Shown piece by piece: positions 31,701 through 52,181 of a DNA stretch of 64,000 nt. Source of the DNA: an uncultured Candidatus Saccharibacteria bacterium (GTDB lineage: Bacteria > Patescibacteriota > Minisyncoccia > Phycocordibacterales > JACOZG01); the NCBI GenBank assembly GCA_964460805.1, contig CAYWPU010000001.1:112565-176564 (forward strand), in the 5' to 3' direction. The position numbers were made by a program, and so were the translations under genes. How positions within the stretch are numbered: the first letter of the stretch is position 1; each line of letters begins with the position of its first letter. A model generated the notes under the pieces. That model made no database searches. It had not been told where the DNA came from and saw nothing but the letters and a program-made list of their open reading frames with translations.

Positions 31701-31715
31701 TTTAAGAATGGTATC

Positions 31716-33814: not shown

Positions 33815-33819
33815 ACTGT

Positions 33820-34635: not shown

Positions 34636-34652
34636 TCTGGTAAACTCGATAG

Positions 34653-35967: not shown

Positions 35968-36364
35968 CTCTTTGATCTCTCAGTTTCGACGTTATCCGGT
36001 TTTTGTTTTCGTAGGCGTGGTTGGTGTGGTACTTAACTTAGGGCTTACATATGTTTTCACTGACCTTCTAGGTTGGTGGTATTTACCCTCTTTTATATTA
36101 GCCACCTTGGTGACCTGGTCTGTTGGTTTCTGGCTTAATTCTCAGCTAACCTTTTCTGGTCACAACCAGGTCAATTTTTGGAAGTCTTATTTAAAGTTCA
36201 TATCCTTATATTTATTATTGAGTCCACCGGCTTTCTATCTCATTTATGCACTTACTTCCTGGGTTCATCTTCACTATCTTGTGAGCGCGTTATTGGTTAA
36301 TATTTTAAGTTCTGTGCTTACCTTCCTGATTACTCAGAGGCGAATTTTTAATTATTGCCCCTAA
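35960..36364 (+). CDS. GtrA-family membrane protein (polysaccharide synthesis/translocation)
   Basis: 134 aa. Four TM helices. N-terminus YPVFVFVGVVGVVLNLGLTYVFT is typical of GtrA. Confidence 0.65.
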   Translation: MSNSLISQFRRYPVFVFVGVVGVVLNLGLTYVFTDLLGWWYLPSFILATLVTWSVGFWLNSQLTFSGHNQVNFWKSYLKFISLYLLLSPPAFYLIYALTSWVHLHYLVSALLVNILSSVLTFLITQRRIFNYCP

Positions 36365-36372
36365 ATTTTTCT

Positions 36373-38196: not shown

Positions 38197-39064
38197 CATT
38201 ATTATCCCAGCTTATAACGAAGAGGCAGCGCTCCAGGGGGTACTGCGAGAGCTCCTAGATTATCACTTTTCACTACCAATAGAACTGGTGTTGATTAACG
38301 ATGGATCTAGCGACCAGACAAGCGTAATTGCACATTCTTTTGCGGGCGACCAGCGGCTCATCATTATTGACCAACAGCAGAACCGCGGCTACGGTGCCAG
38401 CATTAAACAGGGGATCAAGAGGGCGAGCGGTGATTACATCGTTACTTACGATGCTGATGGGCAGTTTTCCCCCGAGCATATAGAGGGTATGATTAAGGTG
38501 GCGCGCGGACAGCAACTAGATGCGGTCTTTGGCGAGCGTCAAGGACGACTCCAAAATAGCTCGCATTGGCGAGTGCCGGGTAAGTATCTAATCCGCTGGC
38601 TGGTGCGCCAGCTGATAGAAGTGAGAGTGAGAGACTTCAACTGCGGTTTACGGCTTATGCGTCGCGAGGCGATCAGACCCTATTTACATCTATGTTCCAA
38701 CCGCTTCTCCTTTTCCACCACCTCAATGATGGTTCTAGTTAGTCGGGGCTACTCCCATACTTTCTGGCCTGTCCAGATCAAGAGTCGCTTGGCTGGCACC
38801 AGTGCTGTGAGAGTGTCTACTGGCTTCTCCACCATCCTTTTAGTGATCCGCTTGATTATGCTTTTCAATCCACTCAAGATTTTTTTTAGCGCCGGCCTCC
38901 TCTCTTTCTTGGCAGGTCTCATCTATGGACTACGTTTCTTTCTGATTGGTAATGGTTTGAGCGTGGGGAGCCTCTTCTTGCTACTCACGGGAGTGCTATT
39001 TGTCTCCCTTGGCCTGATGGCCGACCAGATCTCCGAGTTGAGGAAGTCGCAATTTGAACAATAA
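38183..39064 (+). CDS. Glycosyltransferase family 2, polyprenyl-phosphate sugar transferase (GtrB/DPM1-like) with C-terminal TM helices
   Basis: LSIIIPAYNEE, DAD motif and two C-terminal TM segments. Confidence 0.75.
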   Translation: MQKLSIIIPAYNEEAALQGVLRELLDYHFSLPIELVLINDGSSDQTSVIAHSFAGDQRLIIIDQQQNRGYGASIKQGIKRASGDYIVTYDADGQFSPEHIEGMIKVARGQQLDAVFGERQGRLQNSSHWRVPGKYLIRWLVRQLIEVRVRDFNCGLRLMRREAIRPYLHLCSNRFSFSTTSMMVLVSRGYSHTFWPVQIKSRLAGTSAVRVSTGFSTILLVIRLIMLFNPLKIFFSAGLLSFLAGLIYGLRFFLIGNGLSVGSLFLLLTGVLFVSLGLMADQISELRKSQFEQ

Positions 39065-39876
39065 TGCCAGTGCCCATTCAATCTGTTGCTAACGAGGGGA
39101 CCATTGGAGATTTCCACACACAGTGGACCAAATTTCAAAGGCAAGACGGAGTCTATGCTAGCGAGAGTCTCTTCTGGGATTACTTCGGGCCACTTCTGTC
39201 ACGGGAGGATTTGACAAACAAGAGAGTGGCAGAGGTTGGATCTGGAAATGGTAGGTTTGTGAAGATCTGCTCTCGTTATGCCGCAGAGGTGGTTGGTTTT
39301 GAGCCTTCTGGTGCAGTAGAGGTGGCGAGGCGCTACTGTTTGGGACTTGGGAACACCACTTTTGTTTCCCAGAGTGTCTATCAAATTGAGGTCAGAGATA
39401 ATTTTGATATTGTGTTGTGTTTGGGAGTGTTGCATCATCTGCCAGATCCAGTACACGCCCTCGCGATTATGAAATCGATGCTTGGCGCGGGGGGTTCTTG
39501 CCTCGTGTGGGTCTATGGTCGAGAGGGGAATGCCTTGTACTTAAAGATTTTTAAACCTCTGATGAGGATTACTTCGCGCCTGCCCCACAGTCTATTGAAT
39601 AGTCTCTCCTTCTTGTTGGCGCTAGCTCTTAGATGCTATAGTGCAGTGGTCCGGTTTTTACCTTTTGTGCCTTGGCCCCTTCGGTCTTATATCACTAACG
39701 TGATTTATCCTCTGGATATTTATCACACCAAGTTGGTGATCTACGACCAACTTAATCCTCGAATTGCTAACTATTACTCTCAAGCGGAGATTGAAGCAAT
39801 AGCTAAACAAGCCGGTTTCCAGAATATCCAGTCTTATCATCGTCACGGCTATAGCTGGACTCTAAGGCTAAGTTGA
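39064..39876 (+). CDS. Class I SAM-dependent methyltransferase
   Basis: VAEVGSGNGRF motif I. Confidence 0.65.
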   Translation: MPVPIQSVANEGTIGDFHTQWTKFQRQDGVYASESLFWDYFGPLLSREDLTNKRVAEVGSGNGRFVKICSRYAAEVVGFEPSGAVEVARRYCLGLGNTTFVSQSVYQIEVRDNFDIVLCLGVLHHLPDPVHALAIMKSMLGAGGSCLVWVYGREGNALYLKIFKPLMRITSRLPHSLLNSLSFLLALALRCYSAVVRFLPFVPWPLRSYITNVIYPLDIYHTKLVIYDQLNPRIANYYSQAEIEAIAKQAGFQNIQSYHRHGYSWTLRLS

Positions 39877-39885
39877 TATGCAAGC

Positions 39886-40641
39886 ATGAAAGTAACCGAA
39901 CAACTTCAGAAGGATCATTACGACAAGTTAGCTTTTGCCTACGAAGCGCACTATGACGACTACTGGAGTCAGGCTTACAGACGTCTTTTTGTCTACTCTA
40001 GGTTATTTCGGGATTCAGACTTGCGCGGCAAGGCGGTTCTGGAGGCAATGTGTGGCAGTGGTCAAGCAACCTCTTTTCTCATTAGCCACGGAGCTACGGT
40101 CACTGCACTAGACATATCCGATAAGTTGATTAAATCTCTCAGGTTAAAGCATCCCGGTGTTAAGGCTGTCTGTGCCTCTATTCTTGGTAGCGGTTTGCCA
40201 TCGGACCACTTCGACGCGGTAGTGGTTATTGGCGGGTTGCACCATCTCCACCCACATGTATCAGAGGCTGTCACTGAGATACATCGCGTTCTAAAAAAGA
40301 ACGGGCTTTTCTATTTTTTTGAACCGCATCAGTCCTCATGGTTTAATTGGTTGAGGTCAAGGTGGTACAGGATTGATCCCATGATGTTTGAGTCTAATGA
40401 AGCGGCAATTGACACTCGGTCTCTCGCAAGCCACTTTCGCGGTCGTTTCCGGCCAGAATGGGAACACTATGCCGGCAGTATTGCTTACCTTTTTGTTTAT
40501 AATTCACTGGTCTGGAGGATCCCATTATTTTTGAAAAAGTTTTATTCAGCGCCTCTGTTTGTCTTAGAGTGGTTGTTTAGTTTATTTGTGGGAGAAAAAA
40601 TGGGAATGTACGTGTTCGGTCGTTGGCGTAAGATCTTATGA
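39886..40641 (+). CDS. Class I SAM-dependent methyltransferase
   Basis: VLEAMCGSGQAT motif I and LKKNGLFYFFEP. Confidence 0.65.
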   Translation: MKVTEQLQKDHYDKLAFAYEAHYDDYWSQAYRRLFVYSRLFRDSDLRGKAVLEAMCGSGQATSFLISHGATVTALDISDKLIKSLRLKHPGVKAVCASILGSGLPSDHFDAVVVIGGLHHLHPHVSEAVTEIHRVLKKNGLFYFFEPHQSSWFNWLRSRWYRIDPMMFESNEAAIDTRSLASHFRGRFRPEWEHYAGSIAYLFVYNSLVWRIPLFLKKFYSAPLFVLEWLFSLFVGEKMGMYVFGRWRKIL

Positions 40642-42299
40642 CTTCAATTCGTAATCTAATTGGCCCCGTTTGGTTTTTTTGCGCAGTTTTGGTTGCTTAT
40701 ATTGGTGTACACCTCTATCTCCACCACGATCTGAATAAGTTCAATCTAAGTAGTGATGTCTGGATGGTGCAGTTTGCTAGCCTGCAGCAGCGTGGGGAGG
40801 TTTGGGACCATGTTCCGCCGTTCTACAATCAGGAGAAATATTATTTGACCTACCCTATTATCTATCACCTCAATCCCGGTCTGGAGAGTGGGATGTTTAC
40901 TTACCAAGCGATGATGCTTTTGTTAATCATTGCAACATACTTGGCTACCGGGTTGGTTTTTTACAAAATATTCGGTAATTGGCATGTAGCAGCATTGGGA
41001 GGTTTGATGTTTCTGATTCCCCACCAGATATTTACTACTCGTTTTGGTCTGCTTGGCTTCGGCAATCTTAGGGGGGTTGGTTTCTCTTTTCCCTTTTACG
41101 CTCCGCTGGGTTACTACTGGATTATGTGTGGTCTGCATCACCAGAAGCAGAATATCGCCCTAGCACTATTGGCGGCTTTTTCTGTATATCTGTACCCACC
41201 CTTCGGCGTGCTTGTTGTCCCCTTGATCGTTCTGACGGCCGCGATTCACACTGGCAGACGCATGCTTCGGCCGCTCATGTGGTTTGTGCTGGTCTATATT
41301 GGTGTTTCCGGATTGTTTTGGTACGGACACTTTTCCAATCCCCATGCTGGCATGTTAGACAATGATCCAGATCTTTCTGTGGATCAACTGGCTGCTCAAC
41401 AAGAGATCATTGATTACCGTATTCCCGATGGCTCACTGAGGGGGATAGATTTTGGCGTAGCCAAGAGGGCAGTGTGGGACGGGTTACCATTGATCGCTCT
41501 GCTTGTAATCTCTCCTTTCGTGTTAAGGAAAAAGCGGGAGGAACTTAGTCAGGATTCCATCGGATTCTATCATCTCAATCTCAAGCTTATGGCGGTGGTG
41601 CTCGCCTTTGTTCTGGGTGTAGAGGTTGTGAATACAATTCTGTATTTGTATTCACGTCCACCTTTTTTTATTGAACACCTGAGACTGCTGCGTTTTTTGG
41701 GGTTTGCACTGGTCGGGCAGAGTGTTTGGGTGATGTCAGTGCTTTTCTGGGGTTCTCGACGTTGGTTTTTGGGTTGCGTAGTGGTGACTTTTCTCCTGTT
41801 TTCCCCTCTATCTTTGTCGGCGCCACTGGTGCGTGACTTCACCAGACGTTTTTTTCCAGAAGAAATCCGCCGCCATTATAACCTTGCTCCCATTGTCCCT
41901 CCTAGCGAGACACGTTCACCAGAAAATCTTTCTCAGGCGGCTCTCTGGGCCAAGAGTCAGTCGGTTCACCCAGGCAATAAGTTCTTTGTTTTTAGCGATG
42001 ACCAAGAAGACTTTAAGTTTAAAGTGATTAGTCAACAAGAAACTAACCTTACCAACAAGGAAGGATCAATTTGGATTACTTCTGGTATAGAAAATAGTCA
42101 AAAGTGGTACCAAGAGCGCTTGCGGTATGATCAGGTAGTTGCGTCTGGAGATTTTGGTGCTATTGTTGACTTGGCGCGAAGTCTGCAGTCCTCGCATATC
42201 GTTTTACCAAGGGGCAAATTTACCGAACTTTATGAAGCGTCGGGAGAGTCGTTACGGTCGGTATATCGGAATGGCGATTACTCAATTTTAGAAATCTAG
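40638..42299 (+). CDS. Polytopic membrane protein, putative GT-C-fold glycosyltransferase (GtrC/ArnT-like), with a C-terminal soluble domain
   Basis: About 11 predicted TM segments over roughly 380 aa. Sits between a GtrB-like GT2 and a GT4. No sequence motif identified. Confidence 0.3.
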   Translation: MTSIRNLIGPVWFFCAVLVAYIGVHLYLHHDLNKFNLSSDVWMVQFASLQQRGEVWDHVPPFYNQEKYYLTYPIIYHLNPGLESGMFTYQAMMLLLIIATYLATGLVFYKIFGNWHVAALGGLMFLIPHQIFTTRFGLLGFGNLRGVGFSFPFYAPLGYYWIMCGLHHQKQNIALALLAAFSVYLYPPFGVLVVPLIVLTAAIHTGRRMLRPLMWFVLVYIGVSGLFWYGHFSNPHAGMLDNDPDLSVDQLAAQQEIIDYRIPDGSLRGIDFGVAKRAVWDGLPLIALLVISPFVLRKKREELSQDSIGFYHLNLKLMAVVLAFVLGVEVVNTILYLYSRPPFFIEHLRLLRFLGFALVGQSVWVMSVLFWGSRRWFLGCVVVTFLLFSPLSLSAPLVRDFTRRFFPEEIRRHYNLAPIVPPSETRSPENLSQAALWAKSQSVHPGNKFFVFSDDQEDFKFKVISQQETNLTNKEGSIWITSGIENSQKWYQERLRYDQVVASGDFGAIVDLARSLQSSHIVLPRGKFTELYEASGESLRSVYRNGDYSILEI

Positions 42300-42302
42300 C
42301 TT

Positions 42303-43406
42303 ATGAAATTTGTTTTTCTCGCTCCACGTTATCATACCAATCTGCACTTCCAGATTAAGACTCTGTGTGATCGCGGCCACCGGGTGTACTTCTTAAGCTT
42401 ATACCAGGGCGGTTCGGAGTATCACGGTGCGCTAGAGCCAGAGCTATTGGGTTACTCACCAGTATTCCTCTGGCTGAACGGGTGGTTAGACAGCTCTGGT
42501 GGCAACTTGACCAAGAATAACTTCGAGCTTAAGTATGGTTTTCCACCCCTGTCCCGTCTCCTTCGACGGTTGTGGCAGATTAAGCCCGATGTGGTGGTCA
42601 TCAAGAATATCGAGAGCGCCTACTCGCTTGTGTCAGCAGTGATAGCAAGATCGTTAGGCTCGCGTATTGTTTTTTTGATCCAGATCCCCAAGTATCGAGA
42701 GAAGCACAAGAGTTGGTCGGTAGCCTTGGTGGGCTGGCTCTTTGGAGCCTTGGCGCTCACTCCCATCCTGGGTGATGAGCGCTGGTCGAATGCCAATCCT
42801 AATTTGCGCTATCTACCGTTCAGTTATCCGGCGGTAGAGATTGCAGATAAGGCTGTTGCTCCGGGCGGTGTAAGACGACTGCTCTGCGTTGGCAAATTCC
42901 AAGAGCGCAAGGGTCAACTCCTGCTCTTGCGAGCAATAACCGCCTTGCGTTCAAATTATAAACTTGCGCTAACTCTGGTTGGCCAGACTGATGAAGATGC
43001 TTATTACAGCCAGCTGAGGGACTATGTCTGTAGTCAGAGTCTAGAAGACATCGTTACTCTCAAGTCTGATTTGCTGTGGGAAGAAGTGCAACAGGAATAT
43101 AAAAAGCATGATGTATTTATTCTTCCCAGTTGGGCTGAATCTGCAGCTTACTCGCCACTGGAGGCGATGGCCCACGGTTTACCGGTTTTGACCTCCGACG
43201 ACAACGGCACCAAGGATTATATTATTAACGGTGAGAATGGTTATCATTTTAGAGCAAAAGATGTCCAAGACTTGGCACACAAATTAGAGTTAATTATTAA
43301 AGACGAGGAAACAATACGTTGTATGGGTGCGCGCGGTCTGGAGGAAGCCAAAACTAAATATAATCCCGAGCTGTTCTACCAAAATTTCCTAGAGATGTTA
43401 GGCTAA
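42303..43406 (+). CDS. Glycosyltransferase family 4
   Basis: YSPLEAMAHGLPVLTSDDNGTKDYI. Confidence 0.7.
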   Translation: MKFVFLAPRYHTNLHFQIKTLCDRGHRVYFLSLYQGGSEYHGALEPELLGYSPVFLWLNGWLDSSGGNLTKNNFELKYGFPPLSRLLRRLWQIKPDVVVIKNIESAYSLVSAVIARSLGSRIVFLIQIPKYREKHKSWSVALVGWLFGALALTPILGDERWSNANPNLRYLPFSYPAVEIADKAVAPGGVRRLLCVGKFQERKGQLLLLRAITALRSNYKLALTLVGQTDEDAYYSQLRDYVCSQSLEDIVTLKSDLLWEEVQQEYKKHDVFILPSWAESAAYSPLEAMAHGLPVLTSDDNGTKDYIINGENGYHFRAKDVQDLAHKLELIIKDEETIRCMGARGLEEAKTKYNPELFYQNFLEMLG

Positions 43407-43411
43407 ACAGG

Positions 43412-45067
43412 ATGGATTACTGTGGTTTTCCCAAGAGCTTGATCCCCAGTCTGTGTTGCCCAGAACATGGATTGCAGCTGAGTCTAGAGCAGGCGGAGGT
43501 GGAGGATGGGCGAGTGGTCTACGAAGGATTGCTCCGTTGCTCCGCTGTCTCTTGTACTCGCGGACATGTAATTAGGGGTGGAATCTTGTATATGCTGGAT
43601 AGAGGACAGCTTAGCGAATTGCAGAAATCCGAGATTGTCTCACGTGATGATCAAGCTCCAGATTATGACCGTCGCCTAGCTAGTCGCCACGAGAAAGAGG
43701 TTCCCACTACTTTGGCAGAGTGTGGAAGGATCGCTGGTCGGAAGGTCATTGAATATGGCTGTGGTACGGGGAGATTTACTCTCCACCTGCTGGACGCTGA
43801 CGAGTTGCTGGCTGTGGACTTCTCCCTGAAGTCTCTGCAAATATTAAGTCGCAAGTTATCAAGGCACAATAGTAATGTTGGCTTGATCTGGGGAGATGTT
43901 GCCCGTTTGCGATTAGCGCCCAATTACTTTGATTTAGCACTCTCTACTCAAGTACTGGAGCATCTTGCTACTCCTCAAGATCGCCAGCGTTTTCTCACTC
44001 AAGTGGAGTCTTCACTTGTGGTTGGTGGTCGCTTGGTCTGCTCGGCCTACCACTATGACATACGACGCTGGTTCAAGTGCCTCCCTCAGGAGGGATTCCA
44101 TAATTCGGGTATTTTTTATCACTATTTTACGTTGAGCGAGATTGTTCAGGAAGTCAGTTCACGATTCCTGGTTTTGGCGGCTAGGCCGATTGATATCACT
44201 TGTCCACTAGAGTCGCGTCTTCGTATTTCTCCAACTTGGAGTGGTAGGTTTTCCCGATTATTGGAACGTTGTCCACCAATCAACCGGCTGGGGCACCTGG
44301 CGCTGGTGGTGGCGGTTAAGTTACCAGCGACCAGCCGTACTTGCGTCATCTATAGTTGGGGATTGTTGTTCCCCTGGTTGCTAGCCAAGCGCTGGTTCTG
44401 GTTCACAGAACCGTTTGATGTTCCGCGCACTGCGTTACTCAACTTCTTTTCTTATCAGGATATAAATGTTTCCGGTTTCCATCGTCGGCCAGGTCTTACC
44501 AGCGTGATAGACTTGAGTCAGAGTATTGAGGCCATTAGGTCTAAGATGCGGCCCAACTTCATACTCAAACAAATTAGTAAGGGGGAGAGGAGGGGTCTAG
44601 TGGCTAGACGCGATAAAGATGCCGGTTCGTTTAGGACACTATATCGGCGTTTCCGCTTGGTTCACCACCTACCAGTTGAGAAAATTAAACCATTACTTAG
44701 TCAGTCGCTGATTTATTCTGTATACAGTGGCAAGCGGGCAATTGCCAGCGGCCTGTTTATTAGTAATGGTGTCTATATGCGAGCTTGGGCGCTGGTGTCT
44801 CTAACCTCTCGCGAGGAACCAGATAGGGAACTGGTGGGTCAGGCTAATCGCCTACTTTTGTGGTACGCTATCCAGGATAGTAAAGCCTCTGGACACCAAC
44901 TATTTGATCTGGGGGGGATTTCTCCTGCTTCTCCGCATAAACATCTACGCACTTTAGCGGAGTTTAAAGAAGCCTTTGGTGGCGAGCGTCGCCAGACTTT
45001 CTATTATTTTAAGGTTTATTCTAGATTATTAAAAACTTGGATGAAAATAAGGGGTTGGGTATTTTAA
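43412..45067 (+). CDS. Fusion protein: N-terminal class I SAM methyltransferase plus C-terminal FemAB/CelD-like GNAT acyl-/aminoacyl-transferase domain
   Basis: VIEYGCGTGRFTLHLL (motif I). C-terminal ...WYAIQDSKASGHQLFDLGGISPAS...LAEFKEAFGG resembles the FemAB/PF13480 terminus. Confidence 0.5.
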   Translation: MDYCGFPKSLIPSLCCPEHGLQLSLEQAEVEDGRVVYEGLLRCSAVSCTRGHVIRGGILYMLDRGQLSELQKSEIVSRDDQAPDYDRRLASRHEKEVPTTLAECGRIAGRKVIEYGCGTGRFTLHLLDADELLAVDFSLKSLQILSRKLSRHNSNVGLIWGDVARLRLAPNYFDLALSTQVLEHLATPQDRQRFLTQVESSLVVGGRLVCSAYHYDIRRWFKCLPQEGFHNSGIFYHYFTLSEIVQEVSSRFLVLAARPIDITCPLESRLRISPTWSGRFSRLLERCPPINRLGHLALVVAVKLPATSRTCVIYSWGLLFPWLLAKRWFWFTEPFDVPRTALLNFFSYQDINVSGFHRRPGLTSVIDLSQSIEAIRSKMRPNFILKQISKGERRGLVARRDKDAGSFRTLYRRFRLVHHLPVEKIKPLLSQSLIYSVYSGKRAIASGLFISNGVYMRAWALVSLTSREEPDRELVGQANRLLLWYAIQDSKASGHQLFDLGGISPASPHKHLRTLAEFKEAFGGERRQTFYYFKVYSRLLKTWMKIRGWVF

Positions 45068-45076
45068 TTTACACAC

Positions 45077-46063
45077 ATGTACTTTATTATCACTGTCGAT
45101 ACCGAGGCCGACAACCAGTGGGCTAGAGAATCAACGATTACTCTCAATAATATCCCTTATCTGCAGCGCTTCCAGGATCTCTGCTGTAAATACGGATTCC
45201 CCGTCACCTACCTGGTGACTTATGAGGTGGCAGAGTCGGATGAGGCCGTTAATCTTCTAAAGCGTTTTGTTGCAGAGTGCGGAGCAGAAGTTGGGGCCCA
45301 TCTTCATCCCTGGACCAATCCGCCCTACGACCACAACGACCTATCCTGGGAGAGGAGTGTCCATCGCTTTCCTCATGAGCTTGAACGTAATCTGCTACGC
45401 TGCAAGCTGGAGTCGTTGACTAGTCTAATCACTAGTCGTTTCGGCGTTAGGCCTACCAGCTATCGGTCTGGTCGCTGGGGTTTCAATGGCGTGGTTGCGG
45501 TCGAGCTCATTAGACTGGGTTATCTGGTTGATTGTTCAGTGACACCCAAGCTTTCTTGGGTTTCTAATCTGGGCGATCCCCAAGGTCGAGGTGGTCCGGA
45601 TTATCGCTCAGCACCGGCTTGTCCGTATCATCTAGACTTGGATGATGTGAATAAGCCGGGTCCCAGTTCCTTGCTGGAAGTACCCCTTACCACCCTTTTC
45701 ACTACCAGATTATTTGCTGGCGGGGACCAGTCTCGCTTGGCTAAGTGGTTTCTGGGATTGCCCGATTCCCAGCTCAAGCGGTTACTTAATCACATGCTTT
45801 TCCGGATGCGGACATTGCGAGTATTCCCCAATTCTCGGGCCCGCATGTTCCGGTCCATACTAAGAGCCGCAGAGGCCGAGTGCTTACCAGTACTGGAGTT
45901 TATGATCCATTCCAGCGAGCTCATGCCGGGAGGTAGTCCGTATGCCCAGTCTGCCACGGAGGTGGAGCGGACTTATGTTTTACTGGAGAGGATGTTACAG
46001 TTGTTCCAGGCGCGTGGCCTGCAGGGTGTCACTCTCAGTGCTTACGCTCAGAAGGTTGATTGA
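45077..46063 (+). CDS. Putative carbohydrate esterase family 4 (polysaccharide deacetylase)-like protein
   Basis: IITVDTEAD (cf. NodB TFDDG) and HLHPWTN (cf. H-x-x-H). Weak. Confidence 0.3.
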   Translation: MYFIITVDTEADNQWARESTITLNNIPYLQRFQDLCCKYGFPVTYLVTYEVAESDEAVNLLKRFVAECGAEVGAHLHPWTNPPYDHNDLSWERSVHRFPHELERNLLRCKLESLTSLITSRFGVRPTSYRSGRWGFNGVVAVELIRLGYLVDCSVTPKLSWVSNLGDPQGRGGPDYRSAPACPYHLDLDDVNKPGPSSLLEVPLTTLFTTRLFAGGDQSRLAKWFLGLPDSQLKRLLNHMLFRMRTLRVFPNSRARMFRSILRAAEAECLPVLEFMIHSSELMPGGSPYAQSATEVERTYVLLERMLQLFQARGLQGVTLSAYAQKVD

Positions 46064-46066
46064 TGT

Positions 46067-46750
46067 ATGTTTAAGAGAATAGCTAAGCTTTTGCTAGAGA
46101 AGAACCAGAAACTGCGCCATTTTGCTGTGAGCAAACTGGTTAGATTACATAATTATAGCCATCACAAGATTGCCGAGCTGGCTAGTCTAGATGAGGGCAA
46201 TATTCACCCCAAGCACCGCTTAACACAGTACCACCGGTTTTTTTTAGACAGAGTGTCGCCAAACGATAGAGTTTTAGACGTGGGTTGTGGGGCGGGTTAC
46301 TTGGCTTACGCGATAGCCTCGGTAGCTAAACAGGTGGTGGGCGTGGATATCTCTGCGGCTAATATTGACTACGCTACAACTCACCACCACCGAGATAATC
46401 TAAAGTTTATTTTAGCCGATGTGACCACTTACCCCTGGGCAGGACATTTCGACAAGATAATCTTGTCGAATGTGCTGGAGCATATCAAGGATCGGATAGC
46501 TTTATTAAAGTCACTGGCTAAGCTTAGCGATACCATTCTCTTTAGGGTGCCAATGGAGACTCGCGATTGGCTGACAATGTACAAAAAAGAAAAAGGTTTT
46601 GAATATCGTTTGGATTCTACCCACTACATTGAGTATAGTCTTGAGACAATCCAGTCGGAGTTAAGTGCGGCTGGTTGGACCGTGGCCGAGTCTCAGATCA
46701 ACTGGGGGGAGTTTTGGGCTGTGCTTAAGAGAACACATGAACCGGCATAG
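46067..46750 (+). CDS. Class I SAM-dependent methyltransferase
   Basis: VLDVGCGAGYLAYAIA motif I. Confidence 0.7.
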   Translation: MFKRIAKLLLEKNQKLRHFAVSKLVRLHNYSHHKIAELASLDEGNIHPKHRLTQYHRFFLDRVSPNDRVLDVGCGAGYLAYAIASVAKQVVGVDISAANIDYATTHHHRDNLKFILADVTTYPWAGHFDKIILSNVLEHIKDRIALLKSLAKLSDTILFRVPMETRDWLTMYKKEKGFEYRLDSTHYIEYSLETIQSELSAAGWTVAESQINWGEFWAVLKRTHEPA

Positions 46751-47825
46751 CATTTTATTCCTCGTTAATAGCCTTGGTGTTGGCGGAGCGGAGCGGGCCA
46801 TGGTGGCCCAGGCTAATTATTTAGCTGATCGGGGCCAGAAGATTGTTTTTGTAACCTTACGACCCACAAATCAGGCTCTTTCTCTGGTGGGCGAATTGGA
46901 TGGTCGCGTGGAGTATTTTTGTTTAGATTGGCGGGCGCTTTTTGACCCTCACTCGTTTAGGAAAATAAATACCCTCGTTCGGTCTTGTTATGCAAGAACA
47001 ATATATGCCACTTTGGATCAGGCTATCATTGTGTCTAAATTGCTTAAGATTGCTCACCCGGGATTGAGATTAGTTATACGCGAGTCGGGCGTGGCCAGTC
47101 GCAAGAGTTGGCGGCTGAAGCTCTTGGATCTCGTTACCAACTGGATGTGCTACTCTATCATTGCTGTGTCTCCCGAGGTGGCAGAGAGTCTATTGGCCTA
47201 TCAGTCCATCTACGAAGGCAAAATCAGAATTGTCTCCAATGGAGTAGATTTACCTGCCCCGGTGATTCGTTCCAATAGAGATGTCCTCATCCTATTGCAT
47301 GTCGGGTCTATGAATAATCCAGGCAAAAGGCAGAGTGAGATCATTAAAATTTTTGGCGAAATTGTGCGTCGGACAAAAGAAAAACTCTCACTCGTCTTAG
47401 TGGGTGATGGTATATGTCGTCCAAGATTGGAGGCTCAAGTGCAATTCGCCGGTTTGGGGCAGAAGGTTATCTTTACCGGCTTACTCTCTCCCGCAGAGCT
47501 CTCTAATCTCTACGATCAGGCAGATATCTTTCTGCTCTATTCGGTAACTGAGGGGTCCCCCAATGTTGTTCTTGAGGCGATGGCTCACGGCTTGCCCATC
47601 CTGTCCACCCGTATTCCTGGAGTGAATGAGTGTGTGCTGGATCAAGCGACTGGATTATTGTCAGATGAGGGTCAACAAGAGCGGTATATTGATAACCTGC
47701 TCCGTATGATCAGCGACCGGGGTCTCAGACTCTCGCTGGGGGAGGCGGGCAGAAAGCGGGTCATGGCCCGCTTTCTCTTGGGACACACAATAGCTAAACT
47801 GGAACCGATTTTACTTTTTGACTAA
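46737..47825 (+). CDS. Glycosyltransferase family 4
   Basis: N-terminus ILFLVNSLGVGGAERAM and C-terminus VTEGSPNVVLEAMAHGLPILSTRIPGVNE. Confidence 0.7.
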   Translation: MNRHSILFLVNSLGVGGAERAMVAQANYLADRGQKIVFVTLRPTNQALSLVGELDGRVEYFCLDWRALFDPHSFRKINTLVRSCYARTIYATLDQAIIVSKLLKIAHPGLRLVIRESGVASRKSWRLKLLDLVTNWMCYSIIAVSPEVAESLLAYQSIYEGKIRIVSNGVDLPAPVIRSNRDVLILLHVGSMNNPGKRQSEIIKIFGEIVRRTKEKLSLVLVGDGICRPRLEAQVQFAGLGQKVIFTGLLSPAELSNLYDQADIFLLYSVTEGSPNVVLEAMAHGLPILSTRIPGVNECVLDQATGLLSDEGQQERYIDNLLRMISDRGLRLSLGEAGRKRVMARFLLGHTIAKLEPILLFD

Positions 47826-48648
47826 AATACGATTAAATCTGAGTCTAAAAATGCAGAAACTTAACTTCTCTCATTTTCGCCAAATTGTCCACGTCACCAA
47901 GCGGCAACGCATGGAAAGCGACTGGCTCTACGCTCTACTGCGCTCTGTTTCTGTCCGCTGTTCCTTTTGGCTCCTGAGTCTTTTTCCAAGTATTAGGCCT
48001 AACCACGTGTCATTAATGATGGTGCTGCTGGTGGGAGGGGTACTGATATCTAATCTCTACCCCTTCTCCGTTCCGGCGTATCTGGTTTTGCTAACCCAGC
48101 TCTTGCTCTTGCAATTAGCTTCCTTGTGTGATCGTGTTGATGGTGAGATAGCACGTTATCAGCAGCACTTCACTCAACGAGGCATATATTACGACCGAGT
48201 TTTTCATTTCCTTTACCCTTTTGCTCTCTATCTTGCTGTGGGTCACTACTTTGCCCAACTTCACAATCTCTCTTGGTGGCTAACGCTTGCTATGTTGCTA
48301 GCCATCCTGTCTGTTTTGGTGGGGATACAGGGCAAGATGCGTCATCATATCAAGTTTAAGATTTTGCTCGAAGGGCATCCCGAACTTATCAGGGATCTGT
48401 ATCCCAGCAGTTCTACCTCTCCGATTTTGGGGAGAGGGTGGCGCTTTTTTCATTATCTCGTTTTCATGACCTATACCTGGGTATCGGGCCTGTATTTATT
48501 CTTGCTGATCTTGAGCCAGTTCTCTCTGTATTGGTCTTCTGGGCTCTACCTCTTACACGCGTTTATTTCTATCGTCTGGTTCTCTTATTACTTGTTAGTA
48601 ACCTACCCCAGTCACGCTTTGTTCTCCAAGCAAGACTTCCAACTCTAA
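47818..48648 (+). CDS. CDP-alcohol phosphatidyltransferase-family membrane protein
   Basis: CDRVDGEIARYQQHFTQRGIYYD fits D-G-x2-A-R-x8-G-x3-D. Multiple TM segments. Confidence 0.45.
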   Translation: MTKIRLNLSLKMQKLNFSHFRQIVHVTKRQRMESDWLYALLRSVSVRCSFWLLSLFPSIRPNHVSLMMVLLVGGVLISNLYPFSVPAYLVLLTQLLLLQLASLCDRVDGEIARYQQHFTQRGIYYDRVFHFLYPFALYLAVGHYFAQLHNLSWWLTLAMLLAILSVLVGIQGKMRHHIKFKILLEGHPELIRDLYPSSSTSPILGRGWRFFHYLVFMTYTWVSGLYLFLLILSQFSLYWSSGLYLLHAFISIVWFSYYLLVTYPSHALFSKQDFQL

Positions 48649-49919
48649 GTCGAAGTTGACGGAAGCGGGAAGGCTTTATGGAAATAGTATTGGTAGACGA
48701 AAGTATTGAGGCCGTTACCGATGATTGAACCACAGACAGCGCCCCAGATACCCCATACTGGCAACATTAGGGCAAAAACACCGATCCGTATGAGCGGCGC
48801 GATAATACGCACAGCGTAGAGCTCTTTCTGCTTCATATGAGCGGTCATAGCGGTAGAGAAGAAGGTGCGTGGGAAGAAGAGTAGCGAGAGGGCGTAGACC
48901 TGAGAGAGCAGTAGTGCGCTTGTGTACTTGGGGAAGAAGAGGGGAAAGAGTAGGGGTGAGACTACCCAATAAGCCGCCACTGCTAACAAGATCAGCACCT
49001 CGAGGCGTAGCATTTTACCAGGTAGTGTCTGGCGGATTGTCTCGGGTGTGTCGCTGGCGCTGAGCTTGGGTAGAGCGAGGACGGACATGTTCTGGAGCAA
49101 GCTCTTGATCTGTCCTGGCGCTGAGGTTGCAATGATGTAGACAGCCAGTTGCGCCGCGCCTAAGTAGTGGAAGATCAACAACTTATCGATTTGTCCGGCT
49201 ACAGTCTTGAGTACTTCCATCAGACTGAGGTGGAAGCCGTAGCGGCCCAAAGAGGTAGTGTTGCTACTGACGGCGAGAGAGCTGGGTCGTAGACGGTAGA
49301 GAAAGAGGCTCTGCAGGATAATCTCTGGCACGAAGTAGACAACGATCAATAAGAGCAAATTGTCACTAAAGAAGAGGAACAATAAGATGCTAAGGGTGTT
49401 GAGTATCCTCACGGCGCTGGCGCTGTAGGCTAGGCGTCGGAAATCTCGCCGACCATTGAGGAGGGCCTCATACATGCCGCTCGCCGACACCAGCGGGATA
49501 CTTACCGCGCAGATCATCACACTGAGTGCGAGTGTGATATTGCCTTGTGCCAGATAATATAACGCTACGCCACCAGAGAGCACAGTGGCGAGTAGGGAAT
49601 AGGAGAGCTTTTTCTGTAATAGCCGCCAGAAGCTGGTCTCGTCACCGGAGGCGACACCCTTGATCGCGGCGGTATTGATACCGGGGAAGGTGGCCACCAT
49701 CAGCACGCTCATAATGGAGAGCACGTAACGGTAGTTGCCGTAAGTTTCAGCTGGGAGGAGATTGGCGAAGGCGATAGCGAGCAGTAATGACGAGATGGAT
49801 GCCACGGCCTGACTAAAGGTGAGCCAGACGCTGCCCTTGGCCAGATAGACCATATCAGTCTTGGTGTAGCGCTCGCTCCAGCGCAGAGTCTGGTGGGCCT
49901 TGTGTCGCCAGGTGCTCAT
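48645..49919 (-). CDS. Wzx-like oligosaccharide flippase (MOP superfamily polysaccharide biosynthesis protein)
   Basis: About 12 TM segments. N-terminal LPAETYGNYRYVLSI is typical of Wzx/PF01943. Confidence 0.6.
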   Translation of the reverse strand: MSTWRHKAHQTLRWSERYTKTDMVYLAKGSVWLTFSQAVASISSLLLAIAFANLLPAETYGNYRYVLSIMSVLMVATFPGINTAAIKGVASGDETSFWRLLQKKLSYSLLATVLSGGVALYYLAQGNITLALSVMICAVSIPLVSASGMYEALLNGRRDFRRLAYSASAVRILNTLSILLFLFFSDNLLLLIVVYFVPEIILQSLFLYRLRPSSLAVSSNTTSLGRYGFHLSLMEVLKTVAGQIDKLLIFHYLGAAQLAVYIIATSAPGQIKSLLQNMSVLALPKLSASDTPETIRQTLPGKMLRLEVLILLAVAAYWVVSPLLFPLFFPKYTSALLLSQVYALSLLFFPRTFFSTAMTAHMKQKELYAVRIIAPLIRIGVFALMLPVWGIWGAVCGSIIGNGLNTFVYQYYFHKAFPLPSTST

Positions 49920-50000
49920 TTTGTCTCCATACTACCATTTCCGCGGAGATGTGCTAAAGTGTTCTGCAATATAGTAAACACTGACAAACTCTGTAATTAC

Positions 50001-52181
50001 ATGAGCTTTCAACGCTATTTAATCTGGGCGATTGCGAGTGGCCTCTTCTTGCTTCTCCTCACCCCCCTGATCATCTCCAGTAGCCTCTTTTTCCCATATA
50101 TTACCGGCAAAGCCTTTTTCTTCCGGGTTATCGTGGAGGTCGTCTTCTGTCTCTGGCTCTTGCTGGCCTGGCGGGAGCCGGTCTATCGCCCGCAACGCTC
50201 GTGGATCATGTGGGGTGTGCTGGCACTTTTTGCCGCAAGCGCGCTGGCTACTGTATTTGGTGCTAACCCATACCGCAGCTTCTGGTCCAACTGGGAGCGC
50301 ATGGGCGGTCTGGTGAGCTATCTACACTTGCTAGCCTACTTTTTAGTAATCAGCGCCGTGTTCCGCAGTGAGCAGATATGGCGTTGGTTTTTCCGTAGTT
50401 CCATTTTTGTGAGCATGTGTGTGGCTGGTTACGGTTTAACGCAGTTCAGCGCCACGCGCGTGGATAGCACCCTTGGCAATGCCACTTACTTGGCTGTGTA
50501 CATGCTCTTCCATATTTTCCTCACAGCTTTCTTGCTGAAGCAAGACTGGAAAATAGTCTGGACAAGATATCTATATGGTCTAGTCGGCTTGCTACAGATC
50601 CTGATCTTGTATAAAACAGCCACGCGCGGTGCCATCCTAGGCTTGCTGGCGGGCGTTGGTGTGACGGCCTTGTGCTTGCTGGCTAAGCGCTGGCGCGAGC
50701 CGCGAGTGCGCAAGCTTGGCCTCGGTTTATTGCTGGTGTTGCTTGTGATTGTAGCGGGCTTCTGGAGCGTGCGGGATAGCAATTTTGTGAAAAACAGCTC
50801 CGTGCTCTCGCGCTTTGCCGATATCTCGCTACAAGAAGGCGGTAGTGCAGAGTCTCGTTTTACCATCTGGCAGATGAGCTTGCGTGGATTTGCCGAGCGG
50901 CCACTGCTCGGCTGGGGACCAGAGAACTTTGAGCTGGTTTTTGCTAAATATTTTGAGCCCAAGCTCTGGCGCCAGGAGCCCTGGTTTGATCGTTCGCACA
51001 ATATCTTCCTAGACTGGCTAATTGACGCCGGCGCGCTGGGCTTGCTCGCGTATCTCTCGCTATTTGCCTCGGCGCTCTGGTATATCTGGCGCTCGCGCGT
51101 GCGCGACTCGCTCACTCAGAGCCTGTTCACCGGCTTGCTCGCGGCTTATCTTGTTAATAATATTTTCGTCTTTGATAACCTGGTGAGCTATATTTTATTC
51201 TTCTCCCTGCTCGCTTATTTGCACGCCCAATCTTTGCCTAATCAACTTGAGCAGAGAGTGAGACACGTAGACGCGCCTGTCACTCCCGCGTTCTGGCTCA
51301 CGGGTGGCGTGCTTCTGGTTGCCCTCTGTGGTGCGGTGTATGTGGTGAACATCAAGCCGATGTTCGCGGCCTCGCGCTTGGTGCAGGTGCTTGGTCCGGT
51401 GAGTCAGGGCGTGGCGCCAGATGTGATCGTGAGCGAGCGCTTGGAGAAGTTCCGGCAGATTGCCTCTGCCCGCACTCTTGGCTCGCGCGAGGCGGCCGAG
51501 CAACTGGCCAACCAGGCCACGCAGATTGCCGCCTCTCCGGCCGTATCTGAGCCGCTCAAGCAAGAGATCAGCGCTCTGGCGATTGCCGAGATGGAGCGCG
51601 AGGCTCTCGCCGCGCCAGCGAGCGCGCGGACTAAATTAATTCTCGGCACCACTTACCTCAAGCTTGGCAAGACGCCGGAAGCTCTAGAGATTCTTGCTCA
51701 AGCTCACGAGCTGGCACCGCGCAAGCAGGCTATCATCTTCGCTCTTGCCTCGGCGCATCTCGCCAGCGGTGACGAGGAGACGGCCCTTGAGCTGGCCCAG
51801 CAAGCTTTCAATCTAGACGAAGCTTATCCAGAAGCGCGCAAGTTCTACGCGCTCGCGCTCATCCAGAGCGGCGATGTAACCACGGCGGGAGAGATCCTTG
51901 CTGGCGACCAGGCACTAGAGCTAGACGACAGATTCTTGAACGCTTATGTGGAGGCCAAGCGCTATGATCTCGTCTTCAAGCTCTGGCAAGATAAAGTGAA
52001 AAAAGAGCCAGGCAATACCCAGTTCCGGTTCTCACTTGCCGCGGCTTACCTGATGACGAACCAGCGCGCTTTGGCAATTCAGGAGTTAGAAACTGCGGCG
52101 GAGATTGACCCGCGCCTGGTGCCGCAAGTCGCGCGCCTAGTGAGCGAGATCCGCGCGGGGCGGAATCCAATTTCCCAATAA
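50001..52181 (+). CDS. O-antigen ligase-like (Wzy_C domain) polytopic membrane protein with C-terminal TPR repeats
   Basis: About 10 TM segments. Wzy_C-like loop region ...LYKTATRGAILGLLAG.... C-terminal roughly 250 aa of TPR-like helices. Confidence 0.55.
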   Translation: MSFQRYLIWAIASGLFLLLLTPLIISSSLFFPYITGKAFFFRVIVEVVFCLWLLLAWREPVYRPQRSWIMWGVLALFAASALATVFGANPYRSFWSNWERMGGLVSYLHLLAYFLVISAVFRSEQIWRWFFRSSIFVSMCVAGYGLTQFSATRVDSTLGNATYLAVYMLFHIFLTAFLLKQDWKIVWTRYLYGLVGLLQILILYKTATRGAILGLLAGVGVTALCLLAKRWREPRVRKLGLGLLLVLLVIVAGFWSVRDSNFVKNSSVLSRFADISLQEGGSAESRFTIWQMSLRGFAERPLLGWGPENFELVFAKYFEPKLWRQEPWFDRSHNIFLDWLIDAGALGLLAYLSLFASALWYIWRSRVRDSLTQSLFTGLLAAYLVNNIFVFDNLVSYILFFSLLAYLHAQSLPNQLEQRVRHVDAPVTPAFWLTGGVLLVALCGAVYVVNIKPMFAASRLVQVLGPVSQGVAPDVIVSERLEKFRQIASARTLGSREAAEQLANQATQIAASPAVSEPLKQEISALAIAEMEREALAAPASARTKLILGTTYLKLGKTPEALEILAQAHELAPRKQAIIFALASAHLASGDEETALELAQQAFNLDEAYPEARKFYALALIQSGDVTTAGEILAGDQALELDDRFLNAYVEAKRYDLVFKLWQDKVKKEPGNTQFRFSLAAAYLMTNQRALAIQELETAAEIDPRLVPQVARLVSEIRAGRNPISQ

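What the first reader, a model, noticed from the sequence alone, without database searches (positions are those of the whole stretch)
43412..45067. Methyltransferase fused to a FemAB/CelD-like aminoacyl-/acyl-transferase domain inside the glycan island
The N-terminal half carries a class-I SAM motif I (VIEYGCGTGRF). The C-terminal half ends with the FemAB/PF13480-type signature (...LFDLGGISPAS...FKEAFGG). FemAB-family enzymes usually use aminoacyl-tRNA or acyl donors. Together with the adjacent asnB, the fusion suggests amino-acid or amide decoration of a sugar. As far as I can recall, this domain fusion is uncommon.
Basis: partly seen in the sequence, partly recalled or inferred. Interest (0 to 1): 0.55.

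Follow-up and report, generated by a model that had tools for sequence, protein, structure and literature searches.

The report
Methyltransferase fused to mini-Fem aminoacyl-transferase
A candidate-phyla-radiation (CPR) bacterium's cell-surface sugar gene cluster encodes a real fusion of a methyltransferase to a shortened relative of the Fem enzymes, which take amino acids from charged tRNA; it probably attaches and methylates an amino acid on a de-acetylated amino sugar, a tailoring route I found no report of for surface glycans.

Summary

It is not a canonical double-GNAT Fem. It keeps only domain 2, the tRNA-binding lobe, and belongs to a large uncharacterised "mini-Fem" family in glycan clusters of CPR bacteria, Chloroflexota and Archaea. 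The fusion is a Rosetta stone: most relatives encode MT and mini-Fem as adjacent genes, nearly always with a CE4-like deacetylase (window 45077-46063). GT4-Fem and GT4-MT-Fem fusions also occur.

Best reading: a cytoplasmic deacetylate, aminoacylate (from aa-tRNA), methylate tailoring module. The donor, acceptor and methylation site are inferred. asnB is not adjacent and not part of the module. This is a new variant of a known kind.

The parts
43412..45067 (+). Whole fusion ORF, 551 aa: Trm112-like ribbon + class-I SAM MTase + linker + mini-Fem domain. Predicted soluble and cytoplasmic.
   Evidence: No TM segment (max KD19 = 1.43).
43412..43597 (+). N-terminal Trm112-like zinc-ribbon (residues ~1-62; C15/C16, C43/C48)
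   Evidence: NCBIfam Trm112_arch E=2.4e-4, below its cut-off. Homologue P0015 passes Pfam Trm112p (24.2 bits vs 22). Beta-strands 22-60 in the model. The MT fold matches the Trm112-activated MTase Hvo_0019, 6f5z.
43697..44149 (+). Class-I SAM-dependent methyltransferase core (residues 96-246). Motif I VIEYGCGTGRF at nt 43745-43777.
   Evidence: Pfam Methyltransf_25/11/12/31/23 all above cut-off. Invariant E114, G116, G118, G120, D136. Nearest PDB sequence matches are phosphoethanolamine N-MTs.
44321..44386 (+). Inter-domain linker (residues ~304-325). This is the fusion junction: stand-alone MTases end here and stand-alone mini-Fem proteins start here.
   Evidence: pLDDT 46-67 with residues 314-321 below 50. 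Alignment A1. ORF boundaries in the split loci.
44387..45064 (+). Mini-Fem domain (residues ~326-551): one complete GNAT lobe equivalent to FemX domain 2, plus a small beta-sheet remnant of domain 1. Strongly basic (pI 10.5).
44966..44968 (+). Codon of K519, in EF-K-EAFGG. It aligns to the catalytic Lys305 of Weissella FemX, and F518 aligns to F304.
   Evidence: HMM alignment. K is 99% and F 86% conserved in 106 family members. Role of Lys305 from PMC12945691. Coordinates.
45077..46063 (+). Co-occurring partner gene: 328-aa divergent CE4-like (NodB-type) probable deacetylase with no signal peptide. Invariant E10, H75, D152, H278; near-invariant D8, D12, H77.
   Evidence: Next to, or within a gene or two of, the mini-Fem gene in every close locus that extends far enough. 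Profile A5 vs PDB gives H. pylori PgdA 3qbu at E=1.1e-4, and only CE4 proteins hit. 28/54 members hit PF01522. Some homologues are annotated PgdA/CDA1. A homologue sits near the mini-Fem gene in Methanospirillum.
42303..43406 (+). GT4 glycosyltransferase immediately upstream. The same position is fused to mini-Fem, or to MT plus mini-Fem, in other genomes.
   Evidence: Pfam. Synteny. Fusions P0016, P0017, P0028, P0039 and L011.
28565..52181 (.). Enclosing glycan island: about 8 GT4s, GT2, 5 MTases, an NDP-sugar epimerase/dehydratase, AsnB, a 553-aa unknown membrane protein, a CDP-alcohol phosphatidyltransferase-like protein, a Wzx-type flippase (minus strand) and a Wzy_C/TPR protein.
   Evidence: The block from memb553 to Wzy is conserved in CPR loci L005, L010, L014, L016, L017.

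Best explanation
The gene encodes a soluble, cytoplasmic, bifunctional glycan-tailoring enzyme. It works as part of a conserved module: GT4, methyltransferase, mini-Fem, CE4-like deacetylase. Proposed sequence of events: (1) The CE4-like enzyme (45077-46063) removes the N-acetyl group from an amino sugar on a nucleotide- or lipid-linked glycan precursor, exposing a free amine. (2) The C-terminal mini-Fem domain transfers an amino acid from an aminoacyl-tRNA onto that amine, using K519 as FemX uses Lys305. This is the reaction Orf11 (the solved Sbb17, by my equation of the two) performs on streptothrisamine. (3) The N-terminal SAM methyltransferase methylates the same moiety, most plausibly the new alpha-amino group. 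(4) The decorated unit is then flipped and polymerised or ligated by the cluster's Wzx- and Wzy-like proteins. Shown here: the domain composition, FemAB-superfamily membership, conservation of the catalytic Lys, the fusion/fission pattern, the deacetylase partnership and the glycan context. Inferred: the aa-tRNA donor, the amine acceptor, the order of steps, the methylation site and the identity of the amino acid.
For: Fem homology:
- Family profile A3 hits only aa-tRNA-dependent Fem enzymes in the PDB: Sbb17 E=2e-19, S. aureus FemX 2e-12, Weissella FemX 5.5e-10, FemA 1.4e-8.
- 88/106 family members hit Pfam FemAB.
- K519 aligns to FemX Lys305 and is 99% conserved.

Amino-sugar precedent: Orf11 glycylates streptothrisamine from Gly-tRNA.

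Functional coupling:
- MT and mini-Fem are adjacent genes in 13 of the 17 split close loci and one ORF in 5 (window, L003, L005, L017, L023). The fused forms are interleaved with split forms in the tree.
- GT4-Fem and GT4-MT-Fem fusions exist.

Deacetylase partner:
- It sits next to or close to mini-Fem in all close loci that extend far enough.
- It is CE4-like.
- The pairing recurs in Methanospirillum, and with a canonical PF01522 gene in Chloroflexota.

Not peptidoglycan: the family lies in glycan clusters and occurs in Archaea.

Cytoplasmic location: no TM segment or signal peptide, and the Fem half is very basic.

MT: the nearest characterised relatives are amine N-methyltransferases.

The logic of re-acylating amines exposed by a deacetylase was proposed for Caulobacter HfsK/HfsH.
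Against: No biochemical data exist for any member of the mini-Fem family. The window protein itself fails the curated Pfam cut-offs. Most of GNAT domain 1, which helps bind the acceptor in FemX, is missing, so acceptor binding and even the choice of donor could differ. The only fusion to a tRNA-binding domain (P0069, GatB/YqeY) is a singleton and probably an assembly chimera. MT similarity to N-methyltransferases is only at the generic class-I level, and the island has four other MTases, so O-methylation of a sugar is equally possible. CE4 assignment of the neighbour rests on E=1e-4 profile hits; the window's own copy has no Pfam hit, and a direct comparison with a canonical CE4 was inconclusive. 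No amino-sugar biosynthesis gene such as an aminotransferase was identified in the island. The basic pI is not specific to tRNA binding.
Confidence: 0.5

Rival explanations
1. The mini-Fem domain is an N-acyltransferase that uses a non-tRNA donor (acyl-CoA, acyl-ACP or similar). It re-acylates the amine exposed by the CE4-like enzyme with a non-amino-acid acyl group, as loosely proposed for Caulobacter HfsK. The MT then methylates elsewhere on the sugar.
For: It has a GNAT fold. 59/106 members hit Acetyltransf_6/PF13480, a family whose members are mostly uncharacterised. The HfsK paper stresses donor diversity among GNATs. Loss of domain 1 shows that the family has diverged from canonical Fem enzymes.
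Confidence: 0.25
2. The mini-Fem domain is aa-tRNA dependent but O-aminoacylates a hydroxyl, as MprF and aa-PG synthases do. The target would be a polyol-phosphate or lipid component of a teichoic-acid-like polymer made with the cluster's CDP-alcohol phosphatidyltransferase-like protein.
Against: Sequence profiles match Sbb17 and FemX, which form amides, and do not match MprF. The gene that co-occurs most consistently is a deacetylase-like enzyme, which makes amines rather than hydroxyls. The CDP-OH gene is absent from many module loci, for example L007, L008, L022, L023.
Confidence: 0.1
3. It is a canonical peptidoglycan branching enzyme (FemX/MurM-like) that adds a cross-bridge residue to lipid II or UDP-MurNAc-pentapeptide, as some database annotations of homologues state ('lipid II:glycine glycyltransferase').
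For: Homology to FemX and FemA. JGI names for several homologues.
Against: It lacks most of domain 1, which binds UDP-MurNAc-pentapeptide in FemX. It is never next to mur/pbp genes in the loci examined. Instead it sits between, or is fused to, GT4s, MTases, flippase and Wzy-like genes. The family occurs in Archaea without murein.
Confidence: 0.05
4. The fusion is an artefact: two adjacent genes joined by a sequencing or assembly frameshift, or a degenerate, non-functional C-terminal domain.
For: Most relatives have two separate genes at this position.
Against: The identical 551-aa ORF appears in independent assemblies. Fused ORFs at 41-47% identity occur in four other lineages and nine 50%-identity cluster representatives. 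The C-terminal domain shows strong purifying conservation, with mean column identity 65%, and its catalytic Lys is intact. The model is confident for both domains.
Confidence: 0.01

Closest known systems
Sbb17 / Sba18 (PDB 9wqw, 9wqx, 9wqy), aa-tRNA-dependent peptide synthases. I equate them, without direct confirmation, with Orf11 of the BD-12 (streptothricin-type) pathway.
   Different: Sbb17 is ~311 aa with a full N-terminal GNAT domain of about 146 residues, whereas the window domain has about 50. Sbb17 is a stand-alone enzyme of actinomycete antibiotic biosynthesis, not fused to an MTase, and acts on a small molecule rather than a surface-glycan precursor. Identity is only ~19-20%.
FemX (Weissella viridescens; S. 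aureus FmhB), FemA/B and MurM: peptidoglycan cross-bridge aminoacyl-tRNA transferases (Pfam PF02388)
   Different: They are double-GNAT proteins of 335-430 aa, and FemA/B carry a coiled-coil insert. Their acceptor is a peptidoglycan precursor bound largely by domain 1, which is vestigial here. The window protein scores below the PF02388 cut-off. The genomic context here is glycan synthesis, not murein.
Caulobacter HfsK (Fem-like GNAT, putative N-acyltransferase) with HfsH (cytosolic CE4 deacetylase) in holdfast polysaccharide modification
   Same: The proposed logic is the same: a cytosolic CE4 deacetylase exposes amines on a lipid-linked polysaccharide precursor, and a Fem-like GNAT re-acylates them. 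HfsK homologues are reported to be genetically coupled to EPS systems.
   Different: The HfsK donor and product are unknown. HfsK is regulated by c-di-GMP, is not fused to an MTase, and is not reported as a half-size Fem. I did not test sequence relatedness to the window domain because no HfsK sequence was available.
MprF / aa-PG synthases (DUF2156) and L/F-transferase / ATE1
   Different: There is no sequence-profile similarity. Their acceptors are lipid hydroxyls or protein N-termini, and MprF is membrane-embedded.
Trm112-activated class-I methyltransferases (e.g. Haloferax Hvo_0019-Trm112, 6f5z) and amine N-methyltransferases (phosphoethanolamine/PE N-MTs; daptide MTase)
   Same: The MT half has the same fold (Foldseek E~1e-12, TMt 0.70-0.73). 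A Trm112-like ribbon is present, fused in cis here. The best sequence hits are amine N-MTs.
   Different: All equivalog scores are far below cut-off (daptide MTase 56.8 vs 175). Substrate specificity cannot be read from this level of similarity.

Membership tests
FemAB family (Pfam PF02388) / FemABX aa-tRNA transferases | The protein itself scores above the curated Pfam gathering threshold | tested here: not met
   PF02388 scores 15.3 bits (whole protein) and 17.1 bits (C-terminal half alone) against a cut-off of 24. PF13480 scores 17.6 against 22.
FemAB family (Pfam PF02388) / FemABX aa-tRNA transferases | Family-level (profile) homology to characterised Fem enzymes | tested here: met
   88/106 relatives hit PF02388 at E<=1e-3, best 8.5e-13. 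Profile A3 against the PDB gives Sbb17 2e-19, FemX(Sa) 2e-12, FemX(Wv) 5.5e-10, FemA 1.4e-8, and nothing else.
FemAB family (Pfam PF02388) / FemABX aa-tRNA transferases | Fem-type GNAT fold closer to aa-tRNA transferases than to acyl-CoA GNATs | tested here: met
FemAB family (Pfam PF02388) / FemABX aa-tRNA transferases | Two complete GNAT domains forming the acceptor cleft (~330-430 aa) | tested here: not met
   The domain is ~245 aa. It aligns only to FemX residues 145-308 and Sbb17 residues 147-308. About 50 residues, forming four short strands, replace the ~145-residue domain 1.
FemAB family (Pfam PF02388) / FemABX aa-tRNA transferases | Catalytic Lys (FemX_Wv Lys305) preceded by an aromatic residue (Phe304) | tested here: met
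   F518-K519 align to F304-K305. K is 99% and F 86% conserved among 106 members. The role of Lys305 is taken from PMC12945691.
FemAB family (Pfam PF02388) / FemABX aa-tRNA transferases | Aminoacyl-tRNA is the donor substrate | not testable with these tools
   This is inferred from the fact that all characterised relatives use aa-tRNA. The only tRNA-binding-domain fusion (P0069) is an unreplicated singleton, 62% identical to a genuine GatB in that part.
FemAB family (Pfam PF02388) / FemABX aa-tRNA transferases | Acceptor is a peptidoglycan precursor | not testable with these tools
   Context argues against it: the gene lies in glycan clusters, GT4 fusions exist, and there are archaeal members.
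Class-I SAM-dependent methyltransferase | Pfam MTase domain above cut-off, with intact motif I (GxGxG) and the acidic residue at the end of beta-2 | tested here: met
   Methyltransf_25 scores 54.8 bits against 27, and Methyltransf_11 scores 51.6 against 21.2. E114, G116, G118, G120 and D136 are invariant in 12 homologues. The fold is confirmed.
Trm112-like zinc-ribbon domain (PF03966) | Scores above the curated cut-off; zinc-ribbon fold | tested here: inconclusive
   For the window protein, NCBIfam Trm112_arch gives 21.2 bits against 77 and the N-terminal 94 aa have no Pfam hit. Homologue P0015 passes PF03966 with 24.2 bits against 22. The model shows a beta-ribbon at residues 22-60.
CE4 / NodB polysaccharide deacetylase (PF01522), for the neighbour at 45077-46063 | Sequence membership, and an Asp + His-His metal/catalytic motif | tested here: inconclusive
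   The window copy has no Pfam hit. The family profile hits only CE4 structures, with HpPgdA at E=1.1e-4. 28/54 members hit PF01522, best 3.8e-8. E10, H75, D152 and H278 are invariant and D8, D12, H77 near-invariant, but motif 2 reads H-x-H rather than H-x-x-x-H.
HfsK-type Fem-like GNATs of EPS pathways | Sequence relatedness to Caulobacter HfsK (CC3689) | not tested
Only the published description was compared.

The most novel reading that the evidence does not exclude
The ~245-aa mini-Fem proteins, with 686 cluster representatives at E<1e-10 across CPR bacteria, Chloroflexota and several archaeal phyla, would be a previously unrecognised class of half-size aminoacyl-tRNA transferases. They would divert charged tRNA to decorate cell-surface glycans with amino acids, acting on amines freed by a dedicated cytoplasmic CE4-like deacetylase. 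In this window the enzyme is additionally fused to the methyltransferase that caps the added amino acid. This would be a third cell-envelope use of aa-tRNA, after peptidoglycan bridges and lipid aminoacylation, and it would be the dominant one in organisms with minimal genomes.
Probability: 0.4. Interest if true: 0.8.

Novelty: new variant of a known kind. Interest (0 to 1): 0.6.

Why it matters
Outside translation, aminoacyl-tRNA is known to feed peptidoglycan cross-bridges, membrane-lipid aminoacylation, N-terminal protein tagging and a handful of antibiotics. I found no report of tRNA-dependent aminoacylation of surface polysaccharides or glycoconjugates. Many bacterial and archaeal glycans carry amide-linked amino acids whose transferases, as far as I know, are mostly unidentified (this rests on my own knowledge; I did not check it in the literature here).

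This module offers a concrete and testable candidate enzyme set. The Rosetta-stone fusions (MT-Fem, GT4-Fem, GT4-MT-Fem) indicate which activities act together. CPR bacteria are episymbionts with tiny genomes, yet this one devotes about 24 kb to the island, so the decorated glycan is probably central to their surface biology. The truncated Fem architecture also raises a structural question: how is the acceptor bound without GNAT domain 1?

Tried and rejected
1. GatB/YqeY fusion (P0069). I first took this as independent evidence for tRNA binding. A dedicated search showed it is a singleton whose YqeY part is 62% identical to a genuine GatB, so it is probably a chimera. I dropped it as evidence.
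2. P0037, a Fem plus CE4-like 'fusion'. The Fem domain is truncated at ~residue 181 and the CE4-like part lacks its first ~70 residues. It is probably a deletion or a misassembly, and I use it only as an adjacency hint.
3. asnB as a functional partner. It is not adjacent and is syntenic in only 1-2 of 22 loci. Rejected.
4. Direct hhalign of the neighbour-family profile against one canonical CE4 (L035). Probability was 4%, so the result is uninformative. I replaced it with a broader profile against the PDB and Pfam.
5. The search for related loci with the 106-sequence alignment failed because no conserved stretch was found. I reran it with the 6-sequence alignment.
I therefore could not analyse the MT/Fem interface or the geometry of the active sites.
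7. Literature searches for the fusion, for Fem-like enzymes in Patescibacteria, and for tRNA-dependent glycan aminoacylation found nothing specific. Maruyama 2016 (PMC4959175) is not held.
8. There are no tRNA genes in the window, so there is no hint of a dedicated tRNA.
Full report
**Observation**

The window has an uninterrupted ORF at 43412-45067 (+) of 551 aa. Its ATG lies 5 nt after the stop of an upstream GT4 gene.
- VIEYGCGTGRF at residues 112-122 (nt 43745-43777)
- FDLGGI at residues 498-503
- EFKEAFGG at residues 517-524 (nt 44960-44983)

Pfam gives a strong class-I SAM methyltransferase at residues 96-246 (Methyltransf_25, 54.8 bits against a cut-off of 27). NCBIfam adds a weak Trm112-like zinc ribbon at residues 8-62. 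The C-terminal half only grazes FemAB (15-17 bits vs 24) and Acetyltransf_6 (17.6 vs 22).

**Not an artefact**

- The identical 551-aa protein was read on 4 contigs; the two shown come from different sequencing runs.
- Five full-length homologues exist at 41-47% identity.
- The fused ORF is continuous in four further distinct loci, L003, L005, L017 and L023.
- The C-terminal ~245 residues are more conserved than the rest, with mean column identity 65%.
- AlphaFold2 gives two confident domains joined by a low-confidence linker at residues ~304-325 (pLDDT 85 overall).

**What the C-terminal domain is**

An exhaustive profile search found a large family: 3,960 cluster representatives at E<1e-3 and 686 at E<1e-10. 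Most are stand-alone proteins of ~240-260 aa. Of 106 diverse members, 88 hit Pfam FemAB and 59 hit Acetyltransf_6 on their own.

The 106-sequence profile hits only aminoacyl-tRNA-dependent Fem enzymes among 177,635 PDB sequences:

| PDB entry | Enzyme | E-value |
|---|---|---|
| 9wqw | Sbb17 | 2e-19 |
| 6snr | S. aureus FemX | 2e-12 |
| 1ne9 and related | Weissella FemX | 5.5e-10 |
| 1lrz | FemA | 1.4e-8 |

The HMM alignment places F518-K519 on FemX_Wv F304-K305. Lys305 is the catalytic residue of FemX, and the equivalent Lys329 and Phe328 are required in DhpH-C (PMC12945691). K519 is the most conserved position in the family, at 99% of 106 members.

The domain is nevertheless not a canonical Fem enzyme. 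All alignments begin at FemX residue ~145 or Sbb17 residue ~147. The domain therefore keeps GNAT domain 2, which is the lobe that binds the tRNA acceptor arm according to the review read. About 50 residues forming four short strands replace the ~145-residue domain 1. I call this family 'mini-Fem'.

**Context and fusion pattern**

The gene lies in a ~24-kb glycan island, about 28.5-52.2 kb. The island holds:
- about eight GT4s and a GT2
- five methyltransferases
- an NDP-sugar epimerase/dehydratase
- AsnB
- a 553-aa unknown membrane protein
- a CDP-alcohol phosphatidyltransferase-like protein
- a Wzx-type flippase
- a Wzy_C/TPR protein

Close relatives come almost only from CPR/Patescibacteria MAGs, and they share the block from the 553-aa membrane protein through to Wzy and SecA. 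The window is therefore probably from a Parcubacteria-type CPR genome. That is an inference; the window's own genome was not in the species-representative set.

The 23 distinct close loci, counting the window, have these architectures:

| Architecture | Loci |
|---|---|
| MT and mini-Fem in one ORF | 5 (window, L003, L005, L017, L023) |
| GT4 and mini-Fem in one ORF | 1 (L011) |
| Mini-Fem a separate gene, with the ~305-aa Trm112-MT gene directly upstream | 13 |
| Mini-Fem a separate gene, with no Trm112-MT gene directly upstream | 4 |

In a neighbour-joining tree of the Fem domains, which has no support values, the MT-fused forms fall in at least three separate places among split forms. Among the 150 best family representatives, 137 are stand-alone, 9 are MT-Fem, 3 are GT4-Fem and 1 is GT4-MT-Fem. 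This is a classic Rosetta-stone pattern: the GT4, the MT and the mini-Fem act together. The MT-Fem fusion is indeed uncommon.

**The overlooked partner**

The gene that tracks mini-Fem most consistently is not asnB. asnB is five genes upstream and syntenic in only 1-2 loci. The consistent partner is the gene immediately downstream, 45077-46063, which encodes a 328-aa protein with no Pfam hit. A homologue lies next to, or within a gene or two of, the mini-Fem gene in every close locus that extends far enough.

Its family is large, with more than 3,700 hits, mostly from CPR. A few members are annotated as PgdA/CDA1 deacetylases or carry PF01522. A 54-sequence profile hits only CE4/NodB structures, led by the H. 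pylori peptidoglycan deacetylase 3qbu at E=1.1e-4. 28 of 54 members hit PF01522, best E=3.8e-8. Residues E10, H75, D152 and H278 are invariant, and D8, D12 and H77 nearly so. The protein has no signal peptide.

I treat it as a probable cytoplasmic CE4-like deacetylase with moderate confidence.

The pairing extends far beyond CPR:
- In Methanospirillum, a homologue of the 328-aa protein (hhalign probability 96.7%) lies two genes from the mini-Fem gene.
- In a Chloroflexota MAG, a canonical PF01522 gene abuts the mini-Fem gene.
- A Nitrososphaeria cluster also holds both.

All three of these loci are glycan clusters with GTs, flippases and NDP-sugar enzymes. Archaea have no murein. Together with the GT4 fusions, this argues against a peptidoglycan-bridge role, even though several homologues are annotated 'lipid II:glycine glycyltransferase'.

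**Mechanism proposed**

aa-tRNA and SAM are cytoplasmic, and the protein has no TM segment. The module must therefore act before the glycan is flipped across the membrane. The proposed steps are:
1. The CE4-like enzyme de-N-acetylates an amino sugar on a nucleotide- or lipid-linked precursor.
2. Mini-Fem transfers an amino acid from aa-tRNA to the freed amine.
3. The fused MT methylates the same moiety, plausibly the new alpha-amine.

Support for the direction of each step:
- In the BD-12 pathway the Fem-like enzyme Orf11 glycylates the amino sugar of streptothrisamine at the expense of Gly-tRNA (PMC12945691; PMC10156733). The closest solved relative here, Sbb17, was crystallised with streptothrisamine. 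I take Sbb17 and Orf11 to be the same enzyme, but no source I read states this.
- Caulobacter HfsK (a Fem-like GNAT) and HfsH (a cytosolic CE4) were proposed to act in just this deacetylate-then-re-acylate order on holdfast precursors, with the donor unknown (PMC5362036).
- The MT's nearest characterised relatives are amine N-methyltransferases, but only at the generic fold level.
- The Fem half is very basic: pI 10.5 and net charge +21, with a family median pI of 9.3. This fits a polyanionic substrate but is not specific.

Shown here: the architecture, the homology, the catalytic Lys, the fusion/fission pattern, the partnership with the deacetylase-like gene, and the context. Inferred: the donor, the acceptor, the order of steps, the methylation site, and which amino acid is added.

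**Caveats**

- The single fusion of a mini-Fem to a tRNA-binding GatB/YqeY domain (P0069) turned out to be an unreplicated singleton. Its YqeY part is 62% identical to a genuine GatB. I do not count it as evidence.
- Loss of domain 1 means acceptor binding, and conceivably donor choice, could differ from canonical Fem enzymes.
- No member of the mini-Fem family has been characterised, and I found no paper describing the family or the fusion.

**Verdict**

The finding is a new variant of a known kind: a truncated Fem-type transferase recruited to glycan tailoring, fused to its methyltransferase partner. Interest is 0.6. The broader reading, that mini-Fem proteins are a widespread unrecognised class of tRNA-dependent glycan aminoacyl-transferases, has a probability of about 0.4 and would be of high interest if shown.

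Noticed in passing
window 40638-42299 (+): A 553-aa polytopic membrane protein with no Pfam or NCBIfam hit. It is conserved at 39-45% identity directly upstream of the GT4-MT-Fem-CE4-like block in CPR loci L005, L010, L014, L016 and L017. It could be an unrecognised GT-C-type glycosyltransferase or polymerase.
   Followed up: partly
window 45077-46063 (+): A 328-aa protein with no Pfam hit belongs to a very large family (more than 3,700 proteins, mostly CPR) of divergent CE4-like enzymes. Its motif 2 reads H-L-H-P-W. It co-occurs with mini-Fem genes from CPR to Methanospirillum.
   Followed up: yes
window 26866-28560 (+): A type-IV-secretion coupling-protein-like ATPase (TrwB/TraG/VirD4 domains) sits between ribosomal protein L2 (25259-26098) and the start of the glycan island.
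   Followed up: no
window 33766-34635, 39064-39876, 39886-40641, 46067-46750 (+): Four further stand-alone class-I methyltransferases lie in the same island, making five with the fused one. This predicts an unusually heavily methylated glycan. MTc (46067-46750) is syntenic with the module in many CPR loci.
   Followed up: partly
window 36355-38196 (+): An AsnB-type glutamine amidotransferase/asparagine synthase with a TTG start. It lies five genes upstream of the fusion, not adjacent. An asnB homologue lies between the CE4-like gene and the mini-Fem gene only in locus L026.
   Followed up: partly
L032 3431-4777 (protein P0069): A mini-Fem domain joined to a GatB/YqeY tRNA-binding domain, directly after a GT4 gene. 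It is a singleton whose YqeY part is 62% identical to a real GatB, so it may be an assembly chimera. If real, it would be direct evidence for a tRNA substrate.
   Followed up: yes
protein P0037 (437 aa): A truncated mini-Fem (to about residue 181) joined in frame to the CE4-like protein lacking its first ~70 residues. It is either a deletion-derived pseudogene fusion or a misassembly.
   Followed up: partly
L007 (GCA_964590345.1) and L008/L009: In some split-form loci the module is embedded with sulfotransferases and a B12-binding radical-SAM enzyme instead of the window's gene set. This suggests the same tailoring trio is plugged into chemically different glycans.
   Followed up: no
window 46665-47825 vs 46067-46750: The listed GT4b ORF, with a GTG start at 46665, overlaps the preceding MT gene by 86 nt. 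The true start is probably further downstream.
   Followed up: no
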